Assembly (NCBI GenBank): GCA_041664745.1
Contig: JBAYKD010000001.1
Coordinates: forward strand, 27,097 to 91,096
DNA from: Minisyncoccota bacterium
GTDB taxonomy: Bacteria; Patescibacteriota; Minisyncoccia; Phycocordibacterales; UBA9973
Direction: 5' to 3'
Length of the DNA: 64,000 bases
Under the pieces are notes generated by a model that saw nothing but the letters and a program-made list of their open reading frames with translations, did no database searches and was not told the origin of the DNA. A program made the position numbers and the translations under genes. Positions 9,386 through 63,684 of the stretch are shown here, one piece after another. The first letter of the stretch is position 1; every line of letters starts with the position of its first letter.

Positions 9386-9973
9386 TTATTGATTATAATT
9401 CCCTGGTAAATAAGATACTGTACTAAAAGGTATAAGTCTCAAAAATGCTTTGCCGATCATTAATTTTTGCGGCAAGACCCCCCATGTTCTAGAGTCAGAA
9501 CTTCTATTCCTGTTGTCTCCCATAACGAAATACTCATTATCTTTTGTTGTATATTCTCCGCCTGTAAATTCTTTCTCATTAATGTAAGGTTCTACCATTT
9601 TAAATCCATCTGGATGGTCTTTATTTGTTATTGTGATTTCTCCATTTATAATAGTTATCTTTTCATTTGGTAATCCAATAATTCTTTTTATGAAAAATCT
9701 TTTTGTATCTCCGGGGTAGCGGAAGATGACGACATCTCCTCGATGGGCACTTCCTAATATATAAGATATCTCGTCAACAATTAAATATTGTCCATTATCA
9801 AACGTAGGGTACATAGATTCGCCAGAGACTACGAATGGTTGTGCTATCCACATGCGTATGGGTATTACGACTGCGAGAGCAATAATTGCGAACTTAAGCA
9901 AATCCCAACCATCTTCTAAAAACTTTTTAAATTTTGATTTTTCAGGAACGTTCATATTTGTATTATTTTCCAT
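9386..9973 (-). CDS. lepB: signal peptidase I
   Basis: 195 aa. SGESMYPTF, KRIIGLP, GDNRNRSSDSR. Confidence 0.93.
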   Translation of the reverse strand: MENNTNMNVPEKSKFKKFLEDGWDLLKFAIIALAVVIPIRMWIAQPFVVSGESMYPTFDNGQYLIVDEISYILGSAHRGDVVIFRYPGDTKRFFIKRIIGLPNEKITIINGEITITNKDHPDGFKMVEPYINEKEFTGGEYTTKDNEYFVMGDNRNRSSDSRTWGVLPQKLMIGKAFLRLIPFSTVSYLPGNYNQ

Positions 9974-12106: not shown

Positions 12107-12120
12107 TGAATTTCTATCTA

Positions 12121-12129
12121 TGATATAAT
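12121..12129 (+). promoter_or_regulatory. extended -10 box TGaTATAAT, 6 nt before the ATG at 12136
   Basis: Sequence motif. Confidence 0.55.
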
Positions 12130-12135
12130 TTAAAA

Positions 12136-13757: not shown

Positions 13758-13783
13758 AAGCCTTTTATTTTAAGGCTTTTTTT
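13758..13783 (+). terminator. rho-independent terminator
   Basis: AAGCCTT..AAGGCTT stem followed by a T run. Confidence 0.65.
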
Positions 13784-13791
13784 GCTAGTAT
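13783..13791 (+). promoter_or_regulatory. extended -10 box TGcTAGTAT, 6 nt before the lepA ATG
   Basis: Sequence motif. Confidence 0.5.
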
Positions 13792-13797
13792 AGGGAT

Positions 13798-21721: not shown

Positions 21722-21748
21722 TAAGGGTTTTTATTTGACTATCATTTA

Positions 21749-21757
21749 TGTTAGAAT
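21749..21757 (+). promoter_or_regulatory. extended -10 box TGtTAGAAT, 6 nt before the ATG at 21764 (head of the cmk-murE-murD... operon)
   Basis: Sequence motif. Confidence 0.55.
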
Positions 21758-21763
21758 GAAAGT

Positions 21764-49884: not shown

Positions 49885-50925
49885 TTAATTAGTAGGAGTT
49901 ACAGGAGTCACAGCTGTAGTTTCAGTGTCTTCTTCATCATCATCAATCTTTGGAGTTTGAGCAAGAGTTGTAGCAGCTGACTTTACGTTCTCGTGTACAA
50001 CTTTGACTTGATCACGTAGAGCTTTAATATCAGTATTTAAACTTTCTTTGATTCCACTCATTGCAGCCTTCAATTCTGCTTCTGTTGTGATGTTTGCTGT
50101 ATATACCTTTCCAGATTGAGCAAGTATTAGAGCCTTCACTTCTGTGATGGATGATTTAGCTTTCTCTATTAGAGTACGAGTAGAGGCTACATCTATGCCT
50201 CTTGTGTCAGCATCATTTGCACGAGCCTCAATTCGGAGCAAGCTTTCTTCTATTTTATCTGTTATTTCATTTAGATTATTTACTGCTTTTGTATTAAGTT
50301 CTGCAATTTTTGCAACGATTTTCTCTACAGTTACTTGTTTCTTCTCATCTTTAATCTTAGCAATGTCAGCCTTGAACTTTTCTTTATTTGCTTCCATTTT
50401 TGCTTTTTGTTCTTCCTTATTTAATTCCATTTCTTTCTTGAATTCTTCTTTCTTTAATTCAAATTCATTCTTTTTTGCTTCTCTATCTGCCTCATTTAGT
50501 TTCTTCAACTCTTCTCTTTTGGCTTCGAATTCATCCTTCTTGGCTTCCCTATCAGCCTCGCTTAAATTTTTGAATTCTTCTCTATTTTTTTCAAACTCAT
50601 CCTTTTTTATTTCTCTTTCCTCTTCTATTTTATTTCTAAATTCTTCTCTATTTTGTTTTAATTCTTCTTTTTTTACATCTTTATCTTCTTTTATTTTATC
50701 CTTTACTTCAACTCTTTTTTCTTTTAGATCTTCTCTGTTCTCTTTTATTTGATTACGGATTGCACCAAGTGGTGGTTGTTTAAGATCTGCTCCGGCTGGT
50801 ACTGGTGCATTTATGGGTTGTATTTGTGGTTTATCTTCTATTTCATTTTCTTCTGCATAAGCTACAGGAGAAACAAGTAAGATTCCTACAAAAATTAATG
50901 ATGCATATTTGATGTATTTTTTCAT
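49885..50925 (-). CDS. secreted coiled-coil protein with Lys/Glu-rich repeats
   Basis: 346 aa. Signal peptide ..VSPVAYA. Repeats such as EADREAKK(D/N)EFE.K.EE.KK across about aa 61-196 (nt 50338-50745). Confidence 0.7.
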   Translation of the reverse strand: MKKYIKYASLIFVGILLVSPVAYAEENEIEDKPQIQPINAPVPAGADLKQPPLGAIRNQIKENREDLKEKRVEVKDKIKEDKDVKKEELKQNREEFRNKIEEEREIKKDEFEKNREEFKNLSEADREAKKDEFEAKREELKKLNEADREAKKNEFELKKEEFKKEMELNKEEQKAKMEANKEKFKADIAKIKDEKKQVTVEKIVAKIAELNTKAVNNLNEITDKIEESLLRIEARANDADTRGIDVASTRTLIEKAKSSITEVKALILAQSGKVYTANITTEAELKAAMSGIKESLNTDIKALRDQVKVVHENVKSAATTLAQTPKIDDDEEDTETTAVTPVTPTN

Positions 50926-51006
50926 AATTTTTTATGTTTAATTAACTTTATTAATAACTAATAATGTTTACATTATAACTCTTCTACAAAGTTACGCTAA
51001 TTTTTC

Positions 51007-55029: not shown

Positions 55030-56019
55030 TTATTTATTTTCACTTGAATAGTCCAAACTTGAAGTAATGATCATGTTTCTGTGACTGATGTAATAGTTAG
55101 TTGCGAGTATTCCCCCGATAATTACGAGAGTTATGAGCCCGTTGGTTATAAGGTCAGGATGATGATTCTTTATTCTAATTATTATATTTAAGATTAAGGA
55201 TAGAAGAATTATTCCGAAGATAATAAAGAAGATTACATTGGTACTATTGCGAGGTGAGGAGAATATCTTTTGTAGGAATGTTGGCGTAGTTATATTAGCT
55301 TTTGCTATTTCCGTATCTATTTCGGCACCCAAGACATTAGCAACCTCTTTTATATCTACAGTCTTAGCTACTTCGGTAATATTTTTAATTTCTTTTTGTA
55401 TTTGTGGCTTGATTATATTATTCTGTATATCTTTTAATTCTGCTGTTGGTGTCGGCATTGGGTTCGCATATACTTGAGCGACGAAGACCGTTTCTCTCCC
55501 TTCGTACATACCATTTGCTACACCTGTGCCCATCTCCGTATAGTTACCCTTCACGATATTTGCTTTGTGCGTAGGAGAGGCCATCCATGCATTGGTCACG
55601 TCTTGTGAGTCTGTAAAGTTCACAGCCAAGTTCTCACCAGCGTACTGGTATTCATAGCCGGCCTTTGCGAGCCAGTACCAAGGAGTCTTCCCTTCTGGGC
55701 TGGTGTGGGCAAAGTAGCCATACGTTGCCATATCATTTGCTTTCATTTCGGCTGCTTTGTTTAAAGTAGGATTTACCGCTAGAGTATTTAATTTTTGTGT
55801 TTGACGTTCTTCGTTGGTAAGGTTGGCAAGTATTGCTGGCAAGACTGCAGCCATACCACCAGTGTTATTTATGCGAGTGATAGTAGGGATAAGGAAAGTA
55901 AACACTTCCAAGAATAGAAGCACGAATATAACTTTGCGGATATTCTTGCTACGCAATATGTGGGGACGATTATCGTTCCCATCTTGTGGAATAAAGTGTT
56001 TTTTAAGCCAAGAAATCAT
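55030..56019 (-). CDS. CAP (SCP/PR1-like) domain membrane protein
   Basis: 329 aa from the ATG at 56019. GYFAHTSPEG, ENLA, WMASPTHKANIV, YTEMGTGVA. N-terminal and C-terminal TM helices. Confidence 0.85.
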   Translation of the reverse strand: MISWLKKHFIPQDGNDNRPHILRSKNIRKVIFVLLFLEVFTFLIPTITRINNTGGMAAVLPAILANLTNEERQTQKLNTLAVNPTLNKAAEMKANDMATYGYFAHTSPEGKTPWYWLAKAGYEYQYAGENLAVNFTDSQDVTNAWMASPTHKANIVKGNYTEMGTGVANGMYEGRETVFVAQVYANPMPTPTAELKDIQNNIIKPQIQKEIKNITEVAKTVDIKEVANVLGAEIDTEIAKANITTPTFLQKIFSSPRNSTNVIFFIIFGIILLSLILNIIIRIKNHHPDLITNGLITLVIIGGILATNYYISHRNMIITSSLDYSSENK

Positions 56020-56025
56020 GTTTGC

Positions 56026-56031
56026 ATTATA
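56026..56031 (-). promoter_or_regulatory. TATAAT box 6 nt before the ATG at 56019
   Basis: Minus strand. It lies inside the longer track ORF (start 56049), which itself begins only 2 nt after the upstream terminator. Confidence 0.5.
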
Positions 56032-56051
56032 CATAATAATTGCGTACATGT

Positions 56052-56103: not shown

Positions 56104-59100
56104 TTATTTATTTAGCTCTGCTCTAGTCTTTGCTCCTATCACTCCATCCCCTACTAGCTTGTTTGCTATTTGGAACTTGATGACGGCGGCCTTAGTCTTT
56201 ACTCCAAAGTTTCCATCAGCTGTCAAAGTATATCCAAGAGTAGTTAAGAACTTCTGAAGCTCTATGATTTCATTTCCTTTTGAACCCTTCTTCATGAACT
56301 TTGTGAAGTTGAATTTCTCCGCACCGAGAACTTGTCCAATAGCTGGAGTTGTCTTCACAACTGGTCGCATATAACTTCCGCTAGCTCCATGACTATTGGT
56401 TGCAGTTTGAGTATAAGTAGCAAAAGTTGTAAAGTGTTTGGTCCAGATTACCATGTCAGAACCTACATCCATTTTACAATCACCTTCTACTGGGAATAGA
56501 GTACCAGAATTTATAGTTGTGCTACCTATATCAGCATCACAAGTATTTGTTATCTCTGTAAAGACTCCACCTCTAGAATATCCTGCAAATTTACCTGCTT
56601 GCCCTGGGATGAGAATACGAACTGCATTATCAAAAGTTAATTTGATATCACCATATCCAACTTCAATAACTGATAGAACTGTTGAAGTCATGCCACTATC
56701 TGGTGTTGCTGTGACCGTAGAGTTCTCTTTTACTGTTGGAGCATTGATTGTTCCATCCCAACCTGTTGGAGCAGTCACTACTGTACCTGTTGGAATTTCA
56801 ACTGTGACAGGAGTTGTTGATAAGCTTGTAGTTACATTCATTGTAATATCTGGAAGAGTTGCAGTAGTGTGAGTAAGATCATCAGAAGTTAATGAACTGA
56901 CATCAATCGTGGCGTCAGGAACATTTTCAGGAATAGTAATAGTAGTTGCAACTGTAGAATTTACTACGACTTCTTTCTGTGTAGTATTTACTGTAACAGT
57001 TGGAGCAGCAGCTATTTGAGTAGCTGGTAATATTGTAACACTGACTGAATAATTTTGTGTTGTAGAGTTTGCAGCAGTGACTGTATAAACTATAGGATGA
57101 GCTACTGAATCTGTGAAATCATGAGCTACCAGAGTATTTGGGCTAACAGATGCTCCAGAAATTGTAATTGTAGGAATGAGAGCTGTTATATTTGTTCCAT
57201 TAGGAACATTAATTGCAATAGTATAGTCAGATTCTTTCACTACACCTATAGCTTCTAGTGTTGCGAAACTAAATGCAGTAATTTCTTTTGAGTTGGATGG
57301 TGTAAGAGCAAAATTTGCAGTGGCAGATTTATTTGCAGTTACGTTTGTATCAGTTCTTGTTGCACTTGTACTATTAGTGTCGCTCCAATCTACAAAGTGA
57401 TAACCACTATTTGCTACTGCAGTAACTTCTGTTCCACTTGCGCCATGATTTACTGTTTGAGAAGCTGTTCCTGTAATACTTCCATGATCTCCTGCTGTAT
57501 AAGCTAGAGTGTAAGTATTAATTGCAAAGTTTGCAGTAACTGATTTGTTTGAAGTTACATTAGTCTCTGTTCTAGCAGCAGTAAGTATTCCATCACTCCA
57601 ATTTGTGAAGTGATAGCCAGTGTTAGGAACTGCGGTAACTGTTGATCCATCTCCACCATAATTTACTGTTTGCGGTGAAGTTCCCATAATATTTCCATGT
57701 GCTTCAGCTGTATAAGTGAGAGTGTAAGTATTAATTGCAAAAGTTGCAGATATTGTATGAGTGGAACTAATACTTGAGAATGTATATGTAGTTATTACTC
57801 CAACTGAAGATCCATCAACTAAGACATTTGCAACATGATAATTTGCATTAGGAGTAATTGTATATGTCTGACTAGACAAAGCATCTTTTGTTATTACGCC
57901 TGTTGGTGAGACTTCACCATTTGTTCCAGATGTTGCAGTAATATTATATGTATTTATTGCAAATGTTGCAGATATTGTATGAGGAGCCGTAACATTTGTG
58001 AATGTATAACTTGTAATTGCACCTTCTGAATGGCTGTCAACAAGTACATCAACTATATGATAATTTGTATTTGGTGTAATAGTGAAAATCTTACTTGTTC
58101 CAGAATCTATAGATGCAGTAGGAGTGATAGAGCCATGTTCACCAGCTGAAGAAGTCAAAGTAAATTGGTCGGCTGTTGCTCCGAATATTGCTGTCACAAC
58201 TCCAGAATCAACAACGTTTGTTGCTGTTGCTCCTGCTACTGTGAAGAAATCTGCTGGTACACCAGTTAGAGAATAACCAGTTTTTGGAGTTAGAGTAATT
58301 GTTGCTGTATAACTCGTACTTGGAAGGAAATGACTATCTGCTGGTGACCAAGTTACTGTTCCTGTGTATTGAGCTGTTTCAGTAATTGTTGTCACTGGAG
58401 TTGCATCATTTGCCGGTGTTGTTACTCCAGATATTGCTGGTGTTGAGATAGTCAAAGTGTTCATTGATGAACTAGAGTAATAAGGAATGAAGTCAACGTT
58501 TCCAGAAATTTTTGCAACGATATCAGCCTTAACGGAAGTTCCCCACCAGTTATTTTTGGCGTCAATCTGACTTATTCCATTATCAACATTCATAAAATGA
58601 GTTTGTCCATTAAAGGAGGAATGACTTACTGATACAACAGGAGATCCAATCTTTTCAAATCCTCCCACCTCTATTCCATTTACTCCACCATTAAAAACAT
58701 TTCCTGCTCCAATAGTTACTGAAGGATCAGATGTCTCACCATTATAAATTGCCACAGAAACCCCAGCAGTATTGTTGTTAAATGTATTATTTGTCAAAGT
58801 GGCCTGAGTATTAGGATCATCCCAAATTGAAATACCAGAAGAAGTAGACCCATCGATTGTAGCTACACCTGTATTGTCTGAAATAGTGTTATCAGATAAT
58901 GTTATATGTGCACCTCCCCCAATTTCAAATGCATAATCCAGCCAATTGCCAACTCCTTTTCCGGTATATGTATTTCCGCTATAAGTTCCAGTTGGAGCGT
59001 TAGCAGTGTAATATATTTGAACTCCATATCTTCCCATTTCACTAAATTGAGAATCAGTTACATCAACATTTCCACTTGTTAGAACTTCAATACCTGCTCC

Positions 59101-61629
59101 ATTGTAAGCTGGTCCACTTTCTTCATATTTTATATTGATAAACTTTACGTTATTTATGGAACCAGAACTTGAATCTACATATCTTATTGCTTGAAATATT
59201 TTATGTGTTAAACCATCCAAAGTAACTCCTTGTAAGTTAAATAGAGCATTGGAGCTTACTAAAAACCACCCCTTGGAATTTTCAGAATTTCCAGTATCTT
59301 GAGCCGGTTTAATAATCGTCGTTGCTTTATCTGCACCAATGATTGATATATTTTTATCAATAACAATTTGTCCAACTTCCGTATATGTTCCCGCTGAGAC
59401 ATTAATCGTATCACCAGAAATTGCAGCAGTAATAGCATCTACTATTGTTTCGTAACCAGTTTTTCTTGCTTCACTAGTAAGCATGACCGGACCAAATTCT
59501 GTACAATCAATATTTGTACACCATGGAGAATAATCTATATATTCTAATGTACCCGGAGTTGTGTTTGTTACTGAAGCTAAGTCAAAACCATAACCAGCTA
59601 ATTTACTTACAATGGTTGTTTTATCTGCACTTCCCCACCAATTGTTTTCTGCTTTGAAGTTAGTATCTCGATTTGCATCAGTATAAAGATTTACACGTGA
59701 GTTACTATAAATTTTATTATTACTGATATTATTATTCATAATGGAATAACCTGCTTGACTACTATTTCTTATATGTAAACCATCTTTGTTGGTAGTGAGA
59801 GTATTACCAGTTATAGTATTCCCACTTGAGCCCATCATTTCAATCCCAAAAGCAGTGTTCCCAGAAACTGTGTTGTCCGTCACTGTGTTATTACTAGATT
59901 TCCATAAATAAATTCCATTTGCTTCAAAATTAGAACTTTCTGTTGTTCCCGTAGCCCCACTTATTTCATTATCTGTTATAGTATTACTATTACAATCCTT
60001 ACCAATATAAACGCCGTCTCTAGCATTAGTAGTCATTGTATTACCAGAGATAGTGATTGTGGTAGAGAAAAGTGCAGCATTATAGGGAGAAACATCAAGA
60101 ACAATTCCATAACGTGCATTATTAGTAATAGAATTATTCCTTATCGTGCTATTACTTGCTCCTAAAACTGCAACCCCTGTTGCGTTGTTAGTGATAATGT
60201 TGTTTTCAACAGTAATGCCTGTTATAGAAGATCCGCCACCAACCAACCCAATGCCACCATCTGTAGTAATATCCGTTCCAGAATTTCTAACTGTAAAATT
60301 TTTAAATGTCACATTAATTGCTGTAATAGCAACAACAATTCCAGTAGTACCACTGCCATCAATAATAGTCGTGTTTTTATCAGCCCCTATTAAACTAATT
60401 GATTTATTAATCGAAAGATGTTCAGAGTATGTTCCTGCTGAAACATTTATCGTGTCACCAGGAGTAGCAGCTGTAATAGCTGCTTGAATGGTATCGTATT
60501 CTGTACCAGTATTTTGGTTTACAACGTTCTTTGTGTCTTCTGTTTCAAAGGTAGTGAAGTGGTCAGTAGTAAATATAAATATACCAGAATTAAAACCACA
60601 TCCAACACATACAGCGCCGATAGCTGGATAATTTGGATCTCCTAGTGGAATTATATTTCCAGAATTATTTTTTACTATAAGGTTTGGAGCGCCACCAAGA
60701 CCAGATAAGCCGTACATAGTAATAGTAGCTGGCAAATTTTTAAAAACAGATTCAGTTGTTCCAGATACATAAGTATTTAGGCCAATTTTTGCATAAGCTG
60801 TTCCATTTCCTTCAATATCTAATTTGTTTCCAGTTAATTTTAAATAATCAACAGTATTTTTATCTGTAAGATTTAATGGCCCAGCAAAAGCTATTTTACC
60901 TAAAGCGGTTGAAGGTGTATTTACATCTGTTCTCTTTTCAAAATATAGATTAGTTGCGGCGGATGGATTTTCTATTGAACCCATATTTGTTACAACTCTG
61001 TTGCCTGAAGAAAGGTCGCTTGCAATAGAAGCAAGGGTAGGAGGAACAGATGGAGACCCCGTTCCTGCAAGTTGCTCATGAGTCCACGCGATAGCATTAT
61101 TAAACCAGCCTTTAGTTGGGGTACCTGAGTTCCAAGTAGTTGGGGCAGAATAATCTTCCATTCTTCCAGATGAACCTATACTTGGTGCTGTTTGTAAATA
61201 ATTGGGCATATAAGAACCATTGGTTACGTTTCCATAAGTTACTCTGTTTACTGGAGTAGCTCCATTATAAAGCCCTATTGAATCACCAGGATCGTTAAGT
61301 CCTGAAACATCAAAAACTAAAATACCATTAGCTGGCAAAGTTCCAGAAAGTGAAATTAGTTCAACTTCAGTTGGGACAAGTGGTTGTATTGCATCTGGGT
61401 CGGTAAGCTCTGTAAGTTTCCATCCTGTTAGAGGAATATCAGAACTTGTGTTATTTAATAACTCAACCCACTCACTTCCGCTTGAAGGATGCGACATAAA
61501 TTCTGAAATTACAACATCTGGAACTGTAGCATTTGCCGTATTACTAACTAAAAATCCGCCGACTAGAAAAACCAGAGCGAAAAGAATCGTTCCGAGAAAC
61601 TTGAGATGAGATCTCATTTGTGTAAACAT
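56104..61629 (-). CDS. giant surface protein: signal anchor, lamin-tail (LTD) domain, two parallel beta-helix (PbH1/NosD-like) modules, four Listeria-Bacteroides-type repeats, Ig-like region, C-terminal PG_binding_1 domain
   Basis: 1841 aa. VVISEFMSHPSSGSEWVELLN (LTD); NNIITNNATGVAV.. repeats; two GDTINVSAGTY module starts; two NNWWG module ends; C-terminus GSKGNEIIELQKFLTTLGY..DGNFGVKTKAAVIKFQ. Confidence 0.9.
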   Translation of the reverse strand: MFTQMRSHLKFLGTILFALVFLVGGFLVSNTANATVPDVVISEFMSHPSSGSEWVELLNNTSSDIPLTGWKLTELTDPDAIQPLVPTEVELISLSGTLPANGILVFDVSGLNDPGDSIGLYNGATPVNRVTYGNVTNGSYMPNYLQTAPSIGSSGRMEDYSAPTTWNSGTPTKGWFNNAIAWTHEQLAGTGSPSVPPTLASIASDLSSGNRVVTNMGSIENPSAATNLYFEKRTDVNTPSTALGKIAFAGPLNLTDKNTVDYLKLTGNKLDIEGNGTAYAKIGLNTYVSGTTESVFKNLPATITMYGLSGLGGAPNLIVKNNSGNIIPLGDPNYPAIGAVCVGCGFNSGIFIFTTDHFTTFETEDTKNVVNQNTGTEYDTIQAAITAATPGDTINVSAGTYSEHLSINKSISLIGADKNTTIIDGSGTTGIVVAITAINVTFKNFTVRNSGTDITTDGGIGLVGGGSSITGITVENNIITNNATGVAVLGASNSTIRNNSITNNARYGIVLDVSPYNAALFSTTITISGNTMTTNARDGVYIGKDCNSNTITDNEISGATGTTESSNFEANGIYLWKSSNNTVTDNTVSGNTAFGIEMMGSSGNTITGNTLTTNKDGLHIRNSSQAGYSIMNNNISNNKIYSNSRVNLYTDANRDTNFKAENNWWGSADKTTIVSKLAGYGFDLASVTNTTPGTLEYIDYSPWCTNIDCTEFGPVMLTSEARKTGYETIVDAITAAISGDTINVSAGTYTEVGQIVIDKNISIIGADKATTIIKPAQDTGNSENSKGWFLVSSNALFNLQGVTLDGLTHKIFQAIRYVDSSSGSINNVKFINIKYEESGPAYNGAGIEVLTSGNVDVTDSQFSEMGRYGVQIYYTANAPTGTYSGNTYTGKGVGNWLDYAFEIGGGAHITLSDNTISDNTGVATIDGSTSSGISIWDDPNTQATLTNNTFNNNTAGVSVAIYNGETSDPSVTIGAGNVFNGGVNGIEVGGFEKIGSPVVSVSHSSFNGQTHFMNVDNGISQIDAKNNWWGTSVKADIVAKISGNVDFIPYYSSSSMNTLTISTPAISGVTTPANDATPVTTITETAQYTGTVTWSPADSHFLPSTSYTATITLTPKTGYSLTGVPADFFTVAGATATNVVDSGVVTAIFGATADQFTLTSSAGEHGSITPTASIDSGTSKIFTITPNTNYHIVDVLVDSHSEGAITSYTFTNVTAPHTISATFAINTYNITATSGTNGEVSPTGVITKDALSSQTYTITPNANYHVANVLVDGSSVGVITTYTFSSISSTHTISATFAINTYTLTYTAEAHGNIMGTSPQTVNYGGDGSTVTAVPNTGYHFTNWSDGILTAARTETNVTSNKSVTANFAINTYTLAYTAGDHGSITGTASQTVNHGASGTEVTAVANSGYHFVDWSDTNSTSATRTDTNVTANKSATANFALTPSNSKEITAFSFATLEAIGVVKESDYTIAINVPNGTNITALIPTITISGASVSPNTLVAHDFTDSVAHPIVYTVTAANSTTQNYSVSVTILPATQIAAAPTVTVNTTQKEVVVNSTVATTITIPENVPDATIDVSSLTSDDLTHTTATLPDITMNVTTSLSTTPVTVEIPTGTVVTAPTGWDGTINAPTVKENSTVTATPDSGMTSTVLSVIEVGYGDIKLTFDNAVRILIPGQAGKFAGYSRGGVFTEITNTCDADIGSTTINSGTLFPVEGDCKMDVGSDMVIWTKHFTTFATYTQTATNSHGASGSYMRPVVKTTPAIGQVLGAEKFNFTKFMKKGSKGNEIIELQKFLTTLGYTLTADGNFGVKTKAAVIKFQIANKLVGDGVIGAKTRAELNK
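57304..58164 (-). repeat. four tandem ~72-aa coding repeats (each ending A(T/N)FA(I/L)) inside the giant gene
   Basis: Units FTLTSSAGEHG.., TYNITATSGTNG.., TYTLTYTAEAHG.., TYTLAYTAGDHG... The recurring DNA string agtattaattgcaaa marks unit borders. Confidence 0.8.
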
Positions 61630-61765
61630 ATATTTAATTTGTATTATTAATAATTAATAAAATAGGACTAAGAAAAACAAGAACATTTTCTCTATATGCT
61701 TATAGCCTACACCGAAATAGAATCCTGTCAAGGACTTGAAAGGTGCATAAGAAGTGAAGAAGAAT

Positions 61766-61812
61766 TTCCCAAGGACGGTCCTTGGGAAGGCTCTTTTAAG
61801 GACCGTCCTTGG
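61766..61812 (-). terminator. two tandem GC-rich hairpins of the AAGGAC-N-GTCCTT family after the 61817 gene
   Basis: TTCCCAAGGAC G GTCCTTGGGAA (61766-61788) and AAGGAC C GTCCTT (61798-61810). Confidence 0.7.
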
Positions 61813-61816
61813 TGCT

Positions 61817-62806
61817 TTATTGTGGAGTATTTAGATTGGGCAATGTTGCAGTATTTATTGGGGCAGTTGTAGGAGTAATTGGTGCAGGATTTGTATGGGT
61901 TATTGTAGGAGCAGGTGTAGGAGCAGGAGTCTTAACTTCTGGAGTAGCTGGCTTTGCTGGCTGTGATTGTTGTGTTGCTTTTGCTTGTTCTATTTTCTTT
62001 TCTACTGATTTCTCTGCTGGAGTTGCTGTATGTGGGGCAGGCATATTCAAAGGCATAGTAGTGGTAGCTGGCTTCCTTAGGAGACTATAAATTCCATAAC
62101 TTCCACCTAAAAGTATCAATATAATTAACAATATTATCCATATAGACATAGGCCCACTGACGATAGCACCAACTCTTACGGCGCTGGCTGTAAGGCTATC
62201 TTTCAATTTTTCTCTTCCTGAAAGTCCATCATCACTACCATCGCTTGGCAATATTTCCTTTATATTACTGGCTATTGGGCTTATTTCTACAGCCTTACTT
62301 GTTACTGTTGTTTTGGTTGTAGTAATGGGTGGTATGGCTTTGGCGGTTGTGCTTGTTTTTGGAGGAGTGACTAATGTCGTTGTTTTACAACGATTTCCTG
62401 TATTTATATCATATGTATCCCCTGACTTAAGTGCACATCCGAAAAGCATAGGTTTTATATAGCTTGAGCAACGAATACCAGTATTCACATCAAATACATC
62501 TCCTGATCCGGCCTTGCATCCTACAAGCACTGTTTTTACGTTGTTATTACAAGGTCTTCCAGTATTTACGTCATAAAGATCCCCAGATTTTGGTGCACAT
62601 CCGACGAGTACCATTGTAGATACTGATCCATCCTTATTGATATTACTGACTGGGGATGATAATGAATAGGAAACGCCCAAAGATTTGATCGTAGTTGTTG
62701 CGGCCTCCCCTTTTGCTGTGTTTATAAAAAATCCACCGACGAAGAAAAGCATGGTGAATAAAATCGCCCCGATAAATTTGAGATTGGTTCTCATTTGTGT
62801 AAACAT
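61817..62806 (-). CDS. surface protein with a paralogous leader, three Cys-bracketed repeats, a TM segment and a Pro/Thr/Ala-rich tail
   Basis: 329 aa. The N-terminus MFTQMRTNLKFIGAILF.. mirrors the giant protein's N-terminus MFTQMRSHLKFLGTILF.. Confidence 0.8.
   Translation of the reverse strand: MFTQMRTNLKFIGAILFTMLFFVGGFFINTAKGEAATTTIKSLGVSYSLSSPVSNINKDGSVSTMVLVGCAPKSGDLYDVNTGRPCNNNVKTVLVGCKAGSGDVFDVNTGIRCSSYIKPMLFGCALKSGDTYDINTGNRCKTTTLVTPPKTSTTAKAIPPITTTKTTVTSKAVEISPIASNIKEILPSDGSDDGLSGREKLKDSLTASAVRVGAIVSGPMSIWIILLIILILLGGSYGIYSLLRKPATTTMPLNMPAPHTATPAEKSVEKKIEQAKATQQSQPAKPATPEVKTPAPTPAPTITHTNPAPITPTTAPINTATLPNLNTPQ
62387..62599 (-). repeat. three 27-aa-period coding repeats G-C-x(3)-SGD-x-(Y/F)-D-(V/I)-NTG-x-(P/R)-C
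   Basis: Cys pairs at aa 70/86, 97/113 and 124/140. Confidence 0.75.
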
Positions 62807-63282
62807 AAATTTTAATTCTCGCGTCTCGCAACCGGTGCGGACGGATTTGGTATTAAGATTGATAAAAAATTAGTTTCTAAAAACAAGAACACATATACCT
62901 ACAGATTATACCGAATGGAAACTAAGTCAAATATTTAATTAAGAGCGAAACACAAATCGACGTCTGTCAATACCAACTAAATTTAAAAAATAGTGGCAAC
63001 ATTTTCTGCACCTGCAGGAAATGCTGCCAGATGTTTTGAAGTTTTATTTTGGGAGAAAATTTTTAAAAAAATGACGTCTAAAAACATTTGAGAAATATAG
63101 ATATATAAGTTGTTCTTTATAAAGGACATATCTATAAAGGACACTATATGATGTCCTTTAGAAATATAGGCTATATAACCTTATCTTTTATCCTGCTATT
63201 GATAAATATGTAAATTTATGTTATTTTGTAAAAAATAGAAAAAATAGAATAATTTTTAAATTAATTTTAAATTTTAGACCAT

Positions 63283-63684
63283 ATGTACTATCCTGATCTT
63301 TTAAGTTTGAAGGGTAACACACTTAAATTGGGTGATGTGTTATCTGTTCATAACATGCTTCATGTTGCATGTTGTAATTCCCTAAGAAACTTATATCAAG
63401 ACGATTCCCAGATTTTCAAAGATCTGGGTATTGAAAACAAGGACAAATTTTGTTCTTATTATTATAAGTATCAAGCTCTTCCGGGAGAGTTCCCCCTCTC
63501 TAAGGAAGATGATTTTCCTGCCATGACTAATCTTGCTATAGCTCTCATGGAGCTATCAGAAGAAAAGATTCTGGAAGAAGAAAAAAAGATTCTCATAATG
63601 AAAGAATATCTTGAAAGTGAAGAACTTCTTCATAAAGAGATAACTAGAAAAAAAGGATTTTTCGAACGAATCCTTGGCTTCTAA
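63283..63684 (+). CDS. hypothetical protein
   Basis: 133-aa ORF; no family recognised. Confidence 0.5.
   Translation: MYYPDLLSLKGNTLKLGDVLSVHNMLHVACCNSLRNLYQDDSQIFKDLGIENKDKFCSYYYKYQALPGEFPLSKEDDFPAMTNLAIALMELSEEKILEEEKKILIMKEYLESEELLHKEITRKKGFFERILGF

What the first reader, a model, noticed from the sequence alone, without database searches (positions are those of the whole stretch)
61530..62891. Paralogous promoter/leader cassette shared by two adjacent surface-protein genes
Seen: both genes start with the identical 18 nt ATGTTTACACAAATGAGA. They encode near-identical leaders: MFTQMRSHLKFLGTILFALVFLVGGFLV.NTA versus MFTQMRTNLKFIGAILFTMLFFVGGFFI.NTA. Their upstream regions also share blocks. 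TGTTCTTGTTTTT (plus-strand AAAAACAAGAACA) lies at 61673-61685 and 62879-62891, and both have TTCGGT(G/A)TA and TTGAC(A/T) motifs further upstream. The mature parts of the two proteins are unrelated. Inference: a 5' module (promoter, UTR and signal anchor) has been duplicated and joined to different passenger domains. This suggests a dedicated export or sorting leader and co-regulation. The conserved MFTQMR..LKF prefix ahead of the hydrophobic core is longer than a generic Sec n-region.
Basis: partly seen in the sequence, partly recalled or inferred. Interest (0 to 1): 0.55.

Follow-up and report, generated by a model that had tools for sequence, protein, structure and literature searches.

The report
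Shared promoter-leader module, two surface genes
Two neighbouring cell-surface protein genes of a tiny Paceibacteria (candidate phyla radiation) bacterium carry copies of one ancient start module (promoter, untranslated leader and export signal), which relatives keep while the exposed protein bodies are swapped, probably marking a host-contact locus and not a new secretion pathway.

Summary
Genes A (61817-62806, minus strand) and B (56104-61629, minus strand) share an identical 18-nt start, a 34-35 aa leader and in-register upstream blocks, all far above chance. Their mature parts are unrelated.

The same module precedes every leader-bearing gene found in about ten related Paceibacteria assemblies. 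It consists of TTGACA, a 16-nt spacer, TAnnnT, TGTTCTTGTTTTT, an AT palindrome, an optional GC hairpin, AAAT(A/T)T and ATG-MFTQMR. It occurs nowhere else in about 240 kb examined.

A and B sit at one syntenic locus next to the ATP synthase operon. Relatives keep the module and the C-terminal anchors (a membrane helix in A, a peptidoglycan-binding domain in B), while the passengers are replaced, deleted or swapped.

The A and B copies evolve as separate orthologous lineages with no gene conversion, so the similarity is held by selection. Synonymous sites are conserved through codon 11, which points to constraint at the nucleotide level.

The leader looks like an ordinary Sec/signal-peptidase-I signal. 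There are only two copies per locus, no cognate peptidase or recombinase nearby, and the same anchor works with generic leaders in other lineages.

Verdict: a co-expression and export module is supported. A dedicated sorting leader is not.

The parts
62925..62930 (-). -35 box TTGACT of the gene A promoter
   Evidence: Read directly. TTGAC is conserved in 17 of the 18 aligned cassettes, the exception being TTGAAA in L004_B. Consensus match only; the transcription start is not mapped.
62903..62910 (-). -10 region TATAATCT of gene A (TAATCT at 16-nt spacing, or TATAAT at 14 nt)
   Evidence: The TAnnnT hexamer at 16-nt spacing is the version shared with gene B and most relatives.
62879..62891 (-). 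Conserved 5'-UTR block TGTTCTTGTTTTT of gene A (about +6 to +18 of the inferred transcript)
62849..62869 (-). AT-rich block TTTTTTATCAATCTTAATACC, the degenerate counterpart of the palindrome in gene B's UTR
   Evidence: Aligned with TTATTAATTATTAATAA.
62822..62843 (-). GC-rich hairpin in the gene A UTR (CGTCCGCA-ccggt-TGCGaGACG), about 15 nt before the ATG
   Evidence: Fold. The equivalent position carries hairpins of different sequence in relatives.
62702..62806 (-). Signal-peptide coding part of gene A (MFTQMRTNLKFIGAILFTMLFFVGGFFINTAKGEA). Codons 1-11 (62774-62806) are also conserved at synonymous sites.
61817..62806 (-). Gene A, 329 aa: leader, three 27-aa Cys repeats (GCxxxSGDxYDxNTGxxC), a Thr/Pro linker, a conserved LSGRE...PMSIWIILLI membrane helix and a Pro/Thr tail
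   Evidence: (repeat family D1). No Pfam or NCBIfam family matches.
61766..61812 (.). Terminator-like hairpins after gene A (CCAAGGACGGTCCTT / AAGGACCGTCCTTGG), separating the two transcription units
61726..61731 (-). -35 box TTGACA of the gene B promoter
61704..61709 (-). -10 hexamer TAGGCT of gene B, 16 nt after the -35 box
61673..61685 (-). Conserved 5'-UTR block TGTTCTTGTTTTT of gene B
61644..61660 (-). Perfect palindrome TTATTAAT-T-ATTAATAA in the gene B UTR
   Evidence: pair I4. Conserved in all B/x/y-type cassettes.
61528..61629 (-). Signal-peptide coding part of gene B (MFTQMRSHLKFLGTILFALVFLVGGFLVSNTANA). Codons 1-11 (61597-61629) are conserved at synonymous sites.
56104..61629 (-). 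Gene B, 1841 aa: leader, lamin-tail domain, two beta-helix/NosD regions, InlB B-repeats and a C-terminal PG_binding_1 domain
56113..56277 (-). PG_binding_1 wall-binding domain of gene B (residues 1785-1839), the conserved 3' end of the variable locus
   Evidence: It is kept at 87% DNA identity with L015 while the passenger cannot be aligned, and it is shared by 14 of the 23 leader-bearing representatives.

Best explanation
Genes A and B are two separately transcribed surface-protein genes that both keep one ancient expression-and-export module.

Inferred from sequence, the module has these parts:
- a sigma-70-type promoter with a perfect or near-perfect -35 box, a 16-nt spacer and TAnnnT;
- a 5' UTR of about 70-90 nt without a Shine-Dalgarno sequence, whose first bases carry TGTTCTTGTTTTT, followed by an AT-rich palindrome, an optional GC hairpin and an A/U-rich run before the ATG;
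- a Sec-type signal peptide of 34-35 residues, probably cut by the ordinary signal peptidase I after ANA (B) or GEA (A).

The module would give both genes the same strong, coordinated transcription. In a genome where most genes are leaderless or lack a Shine-Dalgarno sequence, it would also give them the same mode of translation start and mRNA stability, and it would send both products through Sec. A stays in the membrane through its C-terminal helix. B binds the cell wall through its PG_binding_1 domain.

Shown here: the two copies diverged before the sampled species did. They have been kept by purifying selection and not by gene conversion. Nucleotide-level constraint runs into codon 11. The module and the anchors stay while the exposed middles are exchanged among relatives.

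Inferred, not shown: the transcription start, the factor that reads the conserved blocks, high expression, the cleavage site and a role in host contact.
For: - The cassette is aligned in register in 18 genes of four passenger types from about ten assemblies.
- In about 240 kb of window plus related loci the cassette occurs only upstream of leader genes, and the leader HMM finds only those genes.
- The blocks are far above chance.
- A terminator lies between A and B, and each gene has its own promoter.
- Only 2 of 54 window ORFs have an SD-like motif, and 12 have TGnTAnWWT ending 6-10 nt before the ATG. A long UTR is therefore unusual in this genome.
- A-B leader identity within a genome (65.9%) equals that between genomes (65.9%), whereas A-type leaders are 95-96% identical among relatives whose A locus (gene plus upstream flank) is about 83% identical.
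- Synonymous codon identity between A and B/x types is 0.745 in codons 2-11, against 0.487 expected from codon usage. In codons 12-28 it is 0.395 against 0.41 expected.
- Met1 is invariant, while position 5 is T, I, K, V or L in homologues.
- The leader has R6 and K10, an 18-residue hydrophobic core and small residues at -3 and -1. Signal peptidase I is present at 9386-9973.
- The locus is syntenic, and B's passenger cannot be aligned between relatives whose flanks are 82-87% identical. B is deleted in L010 and replaced in L003, and A's ectodomain is swapped in L016 while its leader and membrane anchor are kept.
- Related Paceibacteria highly express extracellular proteins with peptidoglycan-binding domains (PMC10936435).
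Against: - There are no expression data. The promoter is a consensus match with an ambiguous -10 box (TATAAT at 14 nt or TAATCT at 16 nt), and B's TAGGCT is weak.
- The conserved blocks have no identified reader.
- The UTR hairpin is absent from gene B in the window, so it is not essential.
- Pairing between the UTR block and codons 4-7 is notable only in A-type genes and shows no covariation.
- Only 74 kb of the 281-kb source contig was seen, so further copies in this genome cannot be excluded.
- Gene callers in public data start both genes at Met5.
Confidence: 0.6

Rival explanations
1. Dedicated sorting leader. MFTQMR..LKF..VGGF would be a specialised signal read by a cognate peptidase or secretion factor that directs a class of surface proteins, in the way YSIRK-G/S signals do in staphylococci.
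For: - The leader is found only on surface-anchored proteins, either with a PG-binding domain or with the conserved membrane helix.
- GG in the hydrophobic core and the LKF motif are nearly invariant.
- The leader is more conserved than the rest of gene A.
Against: - There are two copies per locus and one locus per genome.
- No candidate partner gene lies within +/-10 kb in the four related genomes whose flanks were read. The nearby S24 gene is LexA.
- No known leader family matches.
- The layout is an ordinary n-h-c/AXA signal.
- In more distant A-type proteins the leader drifts along with the mature part, from MFTQMR to MFTKKR to MSIQKKK.
- The same anchor module is exported with generic signal peptides in other CPR lineages.
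Confidence: 0.12
2. Recombination scaffold. The conserved 5' module and the conserved 3' anchors would be kept mainly as homology arms or recombination sites, letting whole passenger cassettes be replaced and so giving surface variation. Expression would be secondary.
For: - Passenger replacement has breakpoints at the end of the leader and at the start of the anchor, between relatives whose flanks are 82-87% identical.
- B is deleted, replaced or split from A by a HicAB insertion, and A's ectodomain is swapped in L016.
- Synonymous-site conservation in the first 11 codons is also the hallmark of the recombination sites in the 5' ends of mycoplasma variable surface genes (PMC2268961).
Against: - No recombinase, silent cassette or inverted copy lies within +/-10 kb.
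- A and B are direct repeats, each with its own promoter.
- There is no exchange between the A and B modules.
- Homology arms do not explain why promoter and UTR blocks are conserved between A and B.
- This reading is compatible with the best explanation as an added role.
Confidence: 0.2
3. The real start codon is the second ATG (Met5). In that case ATGTTTACACAA would be untranslated and the leader would be a canonical MR..LKF signal, as public gene calls have it.
For: - Gene callers start P0001, P0024 and many homologues at Met5.
- MRSHLKF is a textbook n-region.
- Nucleotide-level conservation of codons 1-11 would suit a UTR.
Against: - ATG1 is present in all 18 cassettes, and Met1 is invariant in the 21-leader protein alignment. 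Position 5 is Thr, Ile, Lys, Val or Leu in many homologues.
- Most substitutions in codons 2-4 are third-position or conservative changes.
Confidence: 0.08

Closest known systems
Mycoplasma agalactiae vpma and M. bovis vsp variable surface lipoprotein families
   Same: The 5' untranslated regions and the signal-peptide coding regions are conserved within the family, while the mature parts share little or nothing. The genes are clustered, and the organisms are small-genome, host-attached bacteria (PMC2268961).
   Different: Those families have six or more lipoprotein genes, an adjacent tyrosine recombinase, recombination sites in the 5' UTR, and a single active promoter moved by inversion. Here there are two non-lipoprotein genes in direct orientation, each with its own promoter, no recombinase within 10 kb, and no sign of exchange between the copies.
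Staphylococcus aureus lpl tandem paralogue cluster (Tsuru and Kobayashi 2008)
   Same: In adjacent surface-protein paralogues the conserved, co-evolving unit includes the intergenic region plus the 5' end of the downstream ORF, and variable parts are shuffled by recombination (PMC2568036).
   Different: The lpl genes are homologous along their whole length and recombine at a central conserved region. Here the mature parts are unrelated, and the conserved pieces are the two ends.
YSIRK-G/S signal peptides with LPXTG anchors on Gram-positive surface proteins (my own knowledge)
   Same: A family-specific conserved signal peptide at the N-terminus, a conserved wall anchor at the C-terminus, and a variable passenger in between.
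   Different: The YSIRK motif is absent and the HMMs do not match. Anchoring is non-covalent (PG_binding_1) or by a membrane helix, and there are only two genes per genome.
S-layer and cell-wall protein genes with strong promoters and long, structured, stabilising 5' UTRs, such as Lactobacillus slpA or the Clostridioides difficile cwp family (my own knowledge)
   Same: Abundant envelope proteins with a long structured leader, a Sec signal, a conserved wall-binding module and a highly variable exposed part that is replaced between strains.
   Different: There is no sequence relationship. Abundance and UTR function are untested here, and S-layer formation is not indicated.
Highly expressed extracellular proteins with peptidoglycan-binding domains in archaea-parasitising Paceibacteria (PMC10936435)
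   Same: The same bacterial class, the same kind of signal-peptide plus PG-binding-domain proteins, and a proposed role in host attachment.
   Different: That study does not describe a shared promoter/UTR/leader module or locus hypervariability. Homology to A or B was not tested.

Membership tests
Sec-type signal peptide cleaved by signal peptidase I | Positively charged n-region, hydrophobic h-region of about 10-20 residues, and a c-region with small residues at -3 and -1 | tested here: met
   R6 and K10 are present. The hydrophobic core runs from residue 11 to 28 (mean Kyte-Doolittle 2.5-2.7 over 15 residues). ANA|T in B and GEA|A in A.
Sec-type signal peptide cleaved by signal peptidase I | Signal peptidase I encoded in the genome, and actual cleavage | tested here: inconclusive
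   The gene is present at 9386-9973 (TIGR02227, E = 8.6e-38). Cleavage itself cannot be tested with these tools.
Lipoprotein, Tat and type IV pilin signal peptides | A lipobox L-x-x-C, a twin-arginine motif, or G|F-T-L-I-E after a short leader | tested here: not met
   Neither leader has a Cys, an RR pair or a pilin motif.
YSIRK-G/S or other curated special leaders | A match to the curated leader HMMs or motif | tested here: not met
   No NCBIfam or Pfam hit for the 44-aa N-termini at E up to 10, and none on the full proteins.
vsp/vpma/vsa-type phase-variable surface gene family | Conserved 5' UTR and signal-peptide region in front of divergent mature parts | tested here: met
vsp/vpma/vsa-type phase-variable surface gene family | Adjacent site-specific recombinase, and copies in inverted orientation sharing one promoter | tested here: not met
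   No recombinase lies within +/-10 kb in the four related genomes whose flanks were read. A and B are in direct orientation, each with its own promoter and with a terminator between them.
vsp/vpma/vsa-type phase-variable surface gene family | A multigene cluster of many paralogues | tested here: not met
   Two copies per locus and one locus per genome in the scans.
Known cis-regulatory RNA (Rfam) | A match to an Rfam covariance model | tested here: not met
   Nothing matches over the UTRs in the window or in four related loci.
Sigma-70-type promoter | -35 TTGACA and -10 TAnnnT at 16-18 nt spacing, with a transcription start downstream | tested here: inconclusive
   The hexamers and a 16-nt spacing are conserved in most of the 18 cassettes. 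No transcript data are available.

The most novel reading that the evidence does not exclude
The conserved stretch from the transcript's 5' end (TGTTCTTGTTTTT), through the AT palindrome and structured hairpin, into codon 11 would be a previously undescribed cis-regulatory element of Paceibacteria. It would be read by an unknown protein or RNA, and it would control translation or stability of the few leadered, Shine-Dalgarno-less mRNAs that encode the host-contact surface proteins. It would define a small surface regulon whose passengers are exchanged like cassettes.
Probability: 0.2. Interest if true: 0.6.

Novelty: new variant of a known kind. Interest (0 to 1): 0.4.

Why it matters
Candidate phyla radiation bacteria live attached to other microbes, and how they recognise and hold their hosts is largely unknown. 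This locus pairs a fixed expression, export and anchoring frame with freely exchanged exposed domains. That is the pattern expected of host-contact or phage-exposed proteins under diversifying pressure, so it marks candidate adhesins in Paceibacteria. The module also gives a defined, testable example of how a long, Shine-Dalgarno-less leader is used in a genome where many genes look leaderless. It does not point to a new secretion pathway.

Tried and rejected
- A word-indexed protein search with the leader profile found nothing. The exhaustive HMMER search then found 23 representatives.
- The first look-up of gene A's exact product failed because public calls start at Met5.
- The JGI metagenome scan gave only 3 loci, and the viral-contig scan gave none.
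- Rfam gave no match.
- Pairing of the UTR block with codons 4-7 is about -9 kcal/mol in A-type genes only. It is weak or absent elsewhere and shows no covariation, so I rejected it as a general feature.
- Gene conversion between A and B is rejected, because identity within a genome equals identity between genomes.
- The S24 peptidase gene next to the locus in relatives is LexA, so it is not a cognate signal peptidase.
- The AlphaFold model of protein A had a mean pLDDT of 52.5, too poor for a fold search.
- A LexA-box reading of the GTTC-containing block was checked by eye and does not fit.
- The search with B's C-terminal module returned only proteins of up to about 530 aa, so it says nothing about long B-type alleles.
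Full report
OBSERVATION

The window is 34% G+C. Two adjacent ORFs lie on the minus strand: gene A (61817-62806, 329 aa) and gene B (56104-61629, 1841 aa).
- Both begin with ATGTTTACACAAATGAGA. There are two exact copies; about 0.16 matches at up to 3 mismatches are expected, and 0 of 100 shuffles reached the observed count.
- The leaders share 21 of 38 residues, and the DNA is 78% identical over 91 nt across the start codons.
- TGTTCTTGTTTTT lies exactly at the stated coordinates.
- TTGAC(A/T)-N9-TTCGGT(G/A)TA occurs in register upstream of both genes and nowhere else exactly in 64 kb.
- Without their leaders the two proteins are unrelated (best E = 0.13).

The only adjustment is that A's promoter reaches 62930.

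THE TWO PROTEINS

B has a lamin-tail domain, beta-helix/NosD regions, InlB-type B repeats and a C-terminal PG_binding_1 domain.

A matches no family. It has three 27-residue Cys repeats (family D1), a Thr/Pro linker, a strongly conserved juxtamembrane segment plus membrane helix (LSGRE...PMSIWIILLI...GGxYGxY) and a low-complexity tail. An AlphaFold model was too poor to use (pLDDT 52.5).

WHERE THE WINDOW COMES FROM, AND RELATIVES

The window is part of a 281-kb ENA metagenome contig. Relatives are MAGs labelled Candidatus Nomurabacteria, Paceibacterota or Paceibacteria.

An exhaustive profile search with the two leaders against 1.84 billion representative proteins found 23 proteins (E <= 1e-3), 74-1837 aa long. 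In 21 the match is at the extreme N-terminus; the other two have a longer called N-terminus. Their middles are very diverse. Fourteen end in the same PG-binding module, and five are A-type. A search with protein A found 41 clusters.

THE MODULE

I aligned the region upstream of 18 leader-bearing genes from the window and about ten related assemblies. The order is conserved:
- TTGACA;
- a 16-nt spacer that usually ends in TTCGGT;
- TA(A/G)nnT;
- 15-25 nt;
- (A/G)TGTTCTTGTTTTT;
- about 10 nt;
- TTTTATTAATTATTAATAAT, which contains a perfect palindrome in gene B;
- a variable segment that usually holds a GC-rich hairpin;
- AAAT(A/T)T;
- ATG TTT ACA CAA ATG AGA.

In about 240 kb of window plus fetched loci, this cassette occurs only in front of genes that carry the leader. 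Conversely, a leader HMM scores only those genes (38-72 bits, plus one diverged copy at 17.5 bits, against at most 6.4 bits for everything else). Promoter, UTR and leader are therefore inherited as one unit.

The unit precedes four passenger types:
- A;
- B;
- an Ig-like x type in L005 and L009;
- a 180-aa PG-binding y type in L005 and L009.

CONTEXT IN THIS GENOME

Only 2 of 54 ORFs in the window have a Shine-Dalgarno-like motif. Twelve have TGnTAnWWT ending 6-10 nt before the start codon, with a sharp peak at 6 nt, which looks like leaderless transcription.

Against that background A and B stand out, with inferred UTRs of about 90 and 68 nt and no Shine-Dalgarno sequence. A terminator-like hairpin separates A from B's promoter, so they are two transcription units with the same control region.

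HOW THE SIMILARITY IS MAINTAINED

A-type and B-type leaders form separate orthologous groups. Over the first 96 nt, A-B identity within a genome averages 65.9%, the same as between genomes. So there is no ongoing gene conversion, and the duplication predates the sampled species.

A-type leaders are 95-96% identical among relatives whose A locus (gene plus upstream flank) is about 83% identical.

Between the A and B/x lineages, synonymous codon identity is 0.745 in codons 2-11, against 0.487 expected from codon usage. In codons 12-28 it is 0.395 against 0.41 expected. Constraint at the nucleotide level therefore runs from the UTR into roughly codon 11. Beyond that, only the peptide is constrained. 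The sequences are not independent, so I treat this as a clear trend and not a calibrated test.

THE START CODON

Public gene calls start both genes at Met5. However, ATG1 is present in all 18 cassettes, while position 5 is Thr, Ile, Lys, Val or Leu in many homologues. Changes in codons 2-4 are mostly third-position. The first ATG is the likelier start.

IS THE LEADER SPECIAL?

It has the ordinary layout: charges at R6 and K10, an 18-residue hydrophobic core, and ANA or GEA before the mature part. A length of 34-35 residues is normal for Gram-positive-type envelopes (my own knowledge).
- It matches no curated leader family.
- The window encodes one ordinary signal peptidase I, 52 kb away. The S24 gene beside the locus in relatives is LexA.
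- No secretion or peptidase gene lies within 10 kb in the four related genomes whose flanks were read.
- Each genome has one locus with two copies.
- In more distant A-type proteins the leader drifts along with the rest of the protein.
- B's C-terminal module is widespread in other CPR lineages behind generic signal peptides.

A dedicated sorting pathway is therefore not supported.

THE LOCUS

Synteny is conserved: ATP synthase operon, MgsA, one or two small genes, A, B, a CAP-domain gene, sometimes LexA, PIF1 helicase, pyruvate kinase.

Flanks are 82-87% identical to L015, but B's passenger (about 61524 to 56351) cannot be aligned. Only the cassette plus leader and the last 250 nt survive. 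Across relatives:
- B and the CAP gene are absent in L010.
- B is replaced by an unrelated secreted protein in L003.
- A HicAB pair is inserted between A and B in L015.
- In L016 the A slot keeps the cassette, the A-type leader and the A-type membrane anchor, but carries a different ectodomain.

Both genes thus have fixed ends and exchangeable middles.

UTR STRUCTURE

Hairpins of different sequence occupy the same position in most cassettes, and L015_A carries two of them. In B/x-type UTRs a closing stem shows compensatory changes, and three members share an irregular hairpin of about 75 nt. Numbers are small, and gene B in the window lacks the hairpin altogether.

Pairing of TGTTCTTGT with codons 4-7 is appreciable only in A-type genes and shows no covariation. 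Rfam has no match.

INTERPRETATION

The best-supported reading is a shared expression-and-export module that couples transcription, translation start, mRNA stability and Sec export of a membrane-anchored and a wall-bound surface protein. The conserved ends may also serve as landing sites for passenger replacement.

The closest analogue is the vpma/vsp system of mycoplasmas, which also has a conserved 5' UTR and signal peptide in front of unrelated mature parts (PMC2268961). Its defining switch machinery is absent here. The S. aureus lpl cluster shows that a unit made of an intergenic region plus the 5' end of an ORF can be the unit of evolution (PMC2568036). Highly expressed PG-binding extracellular proteins have been reported in related Paceibacteria and proposed to act in host attachment (PMC10936435).

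VERDICT

This is a real, conserved, lineage-specific module. I class it as a new variant of a known kind, of moderate interest (0.4). It is mainly useful as a pointer to host-contact proteins and to control of leadered mRNAs in these bacteria.

Noticed in passing
whole window, e.g. 12120-12135, 13782-13797, 21748-21763: Only 2 of 54 ORFs have a Shine-Dalgarno-like motif. Twelve have an extended -10 box (TGnTAnWWT) ending 6-10 nt before the start codon, seven of them at exactly 6 nt. This suggests widespread leaderless transcripts in this organism.
   Followed up: partly
window 63117-63164: AAAGGACAT / ATGTCCTTT inverted repeats plus a third copy lie about 300 nt upstream of gene A, in the divergent intergenic region. 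They are 92% conserved in L003 (2758-2807) and recognisable in L013. They could be an operator or a bidirectional terminator.
   Followed up: partly
L005 2895-2985; L009 865-957; L013 11135-11225 (approximate): Some relatives have an irregular hairpin of about 75 nt in the 5' UTR of x/B-type genes, with conserved single-stranded motifs GACUCACUCC and CCAUAGC and some compensatory pairs. There is no Rfam match, and it is absent from the window's genes.
   Followed up: partly
window 62385-62604; proteins P0007, P0008, P0009, P0012, P0018, P0021: The Cys motif of protein A (GCxxxSGDxYDxNTGxxC, three copies) resembles a single C-x-x-G-x-K-F-S-x-T-T-G-x-x-C motif that sits just before the PG-binding domain in several B-type proteins of relatives. 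It may be a small wall- or glycan-binding unit. It matches no Pfam family.
   Followed up: no
window 63283-63684 (+): A 133-aa ORF with no family match is transcribed divergently from gene A. It is conserved next to A in L001, L010 and L015 but is replaced by a DNA_alkylation gene in other relatives. A regulatory role is possible but untested.
   Followed up: no
window 55030-56049 (-): A gene for a CAP/YkwD-family protein with an N-terminal membrane helix directly follows gene B here and in every relative that has B, and it is lost together with B in L010. This suggests a functional pair.
   Followed up: no
L015 10896-11367: A HicA/HicB-like toxin-antitoxin pair is inserted between A and B in one relative. 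This is consistent with the locus being a hot spot for insertion and replacement.
   Followed up: no
window 50948-50964: TTATTAGTTATTAATAA, one mismatch from the palindrome in gene B's UTR, lies 22 nt upstream of another secreted-protein gene (49885-50925). In this AT-rich genome it could be chance.
   Followed up: no
window 62965-62970: A second perfect TTGACA lies 40 nt upstream of gene A's proximal -35 box. It is conserved in most A-type cassettes (two boxes 39-40 nt apart in six of the nine; L007_A has only one) and could be a second promoter.
   Followed up: no
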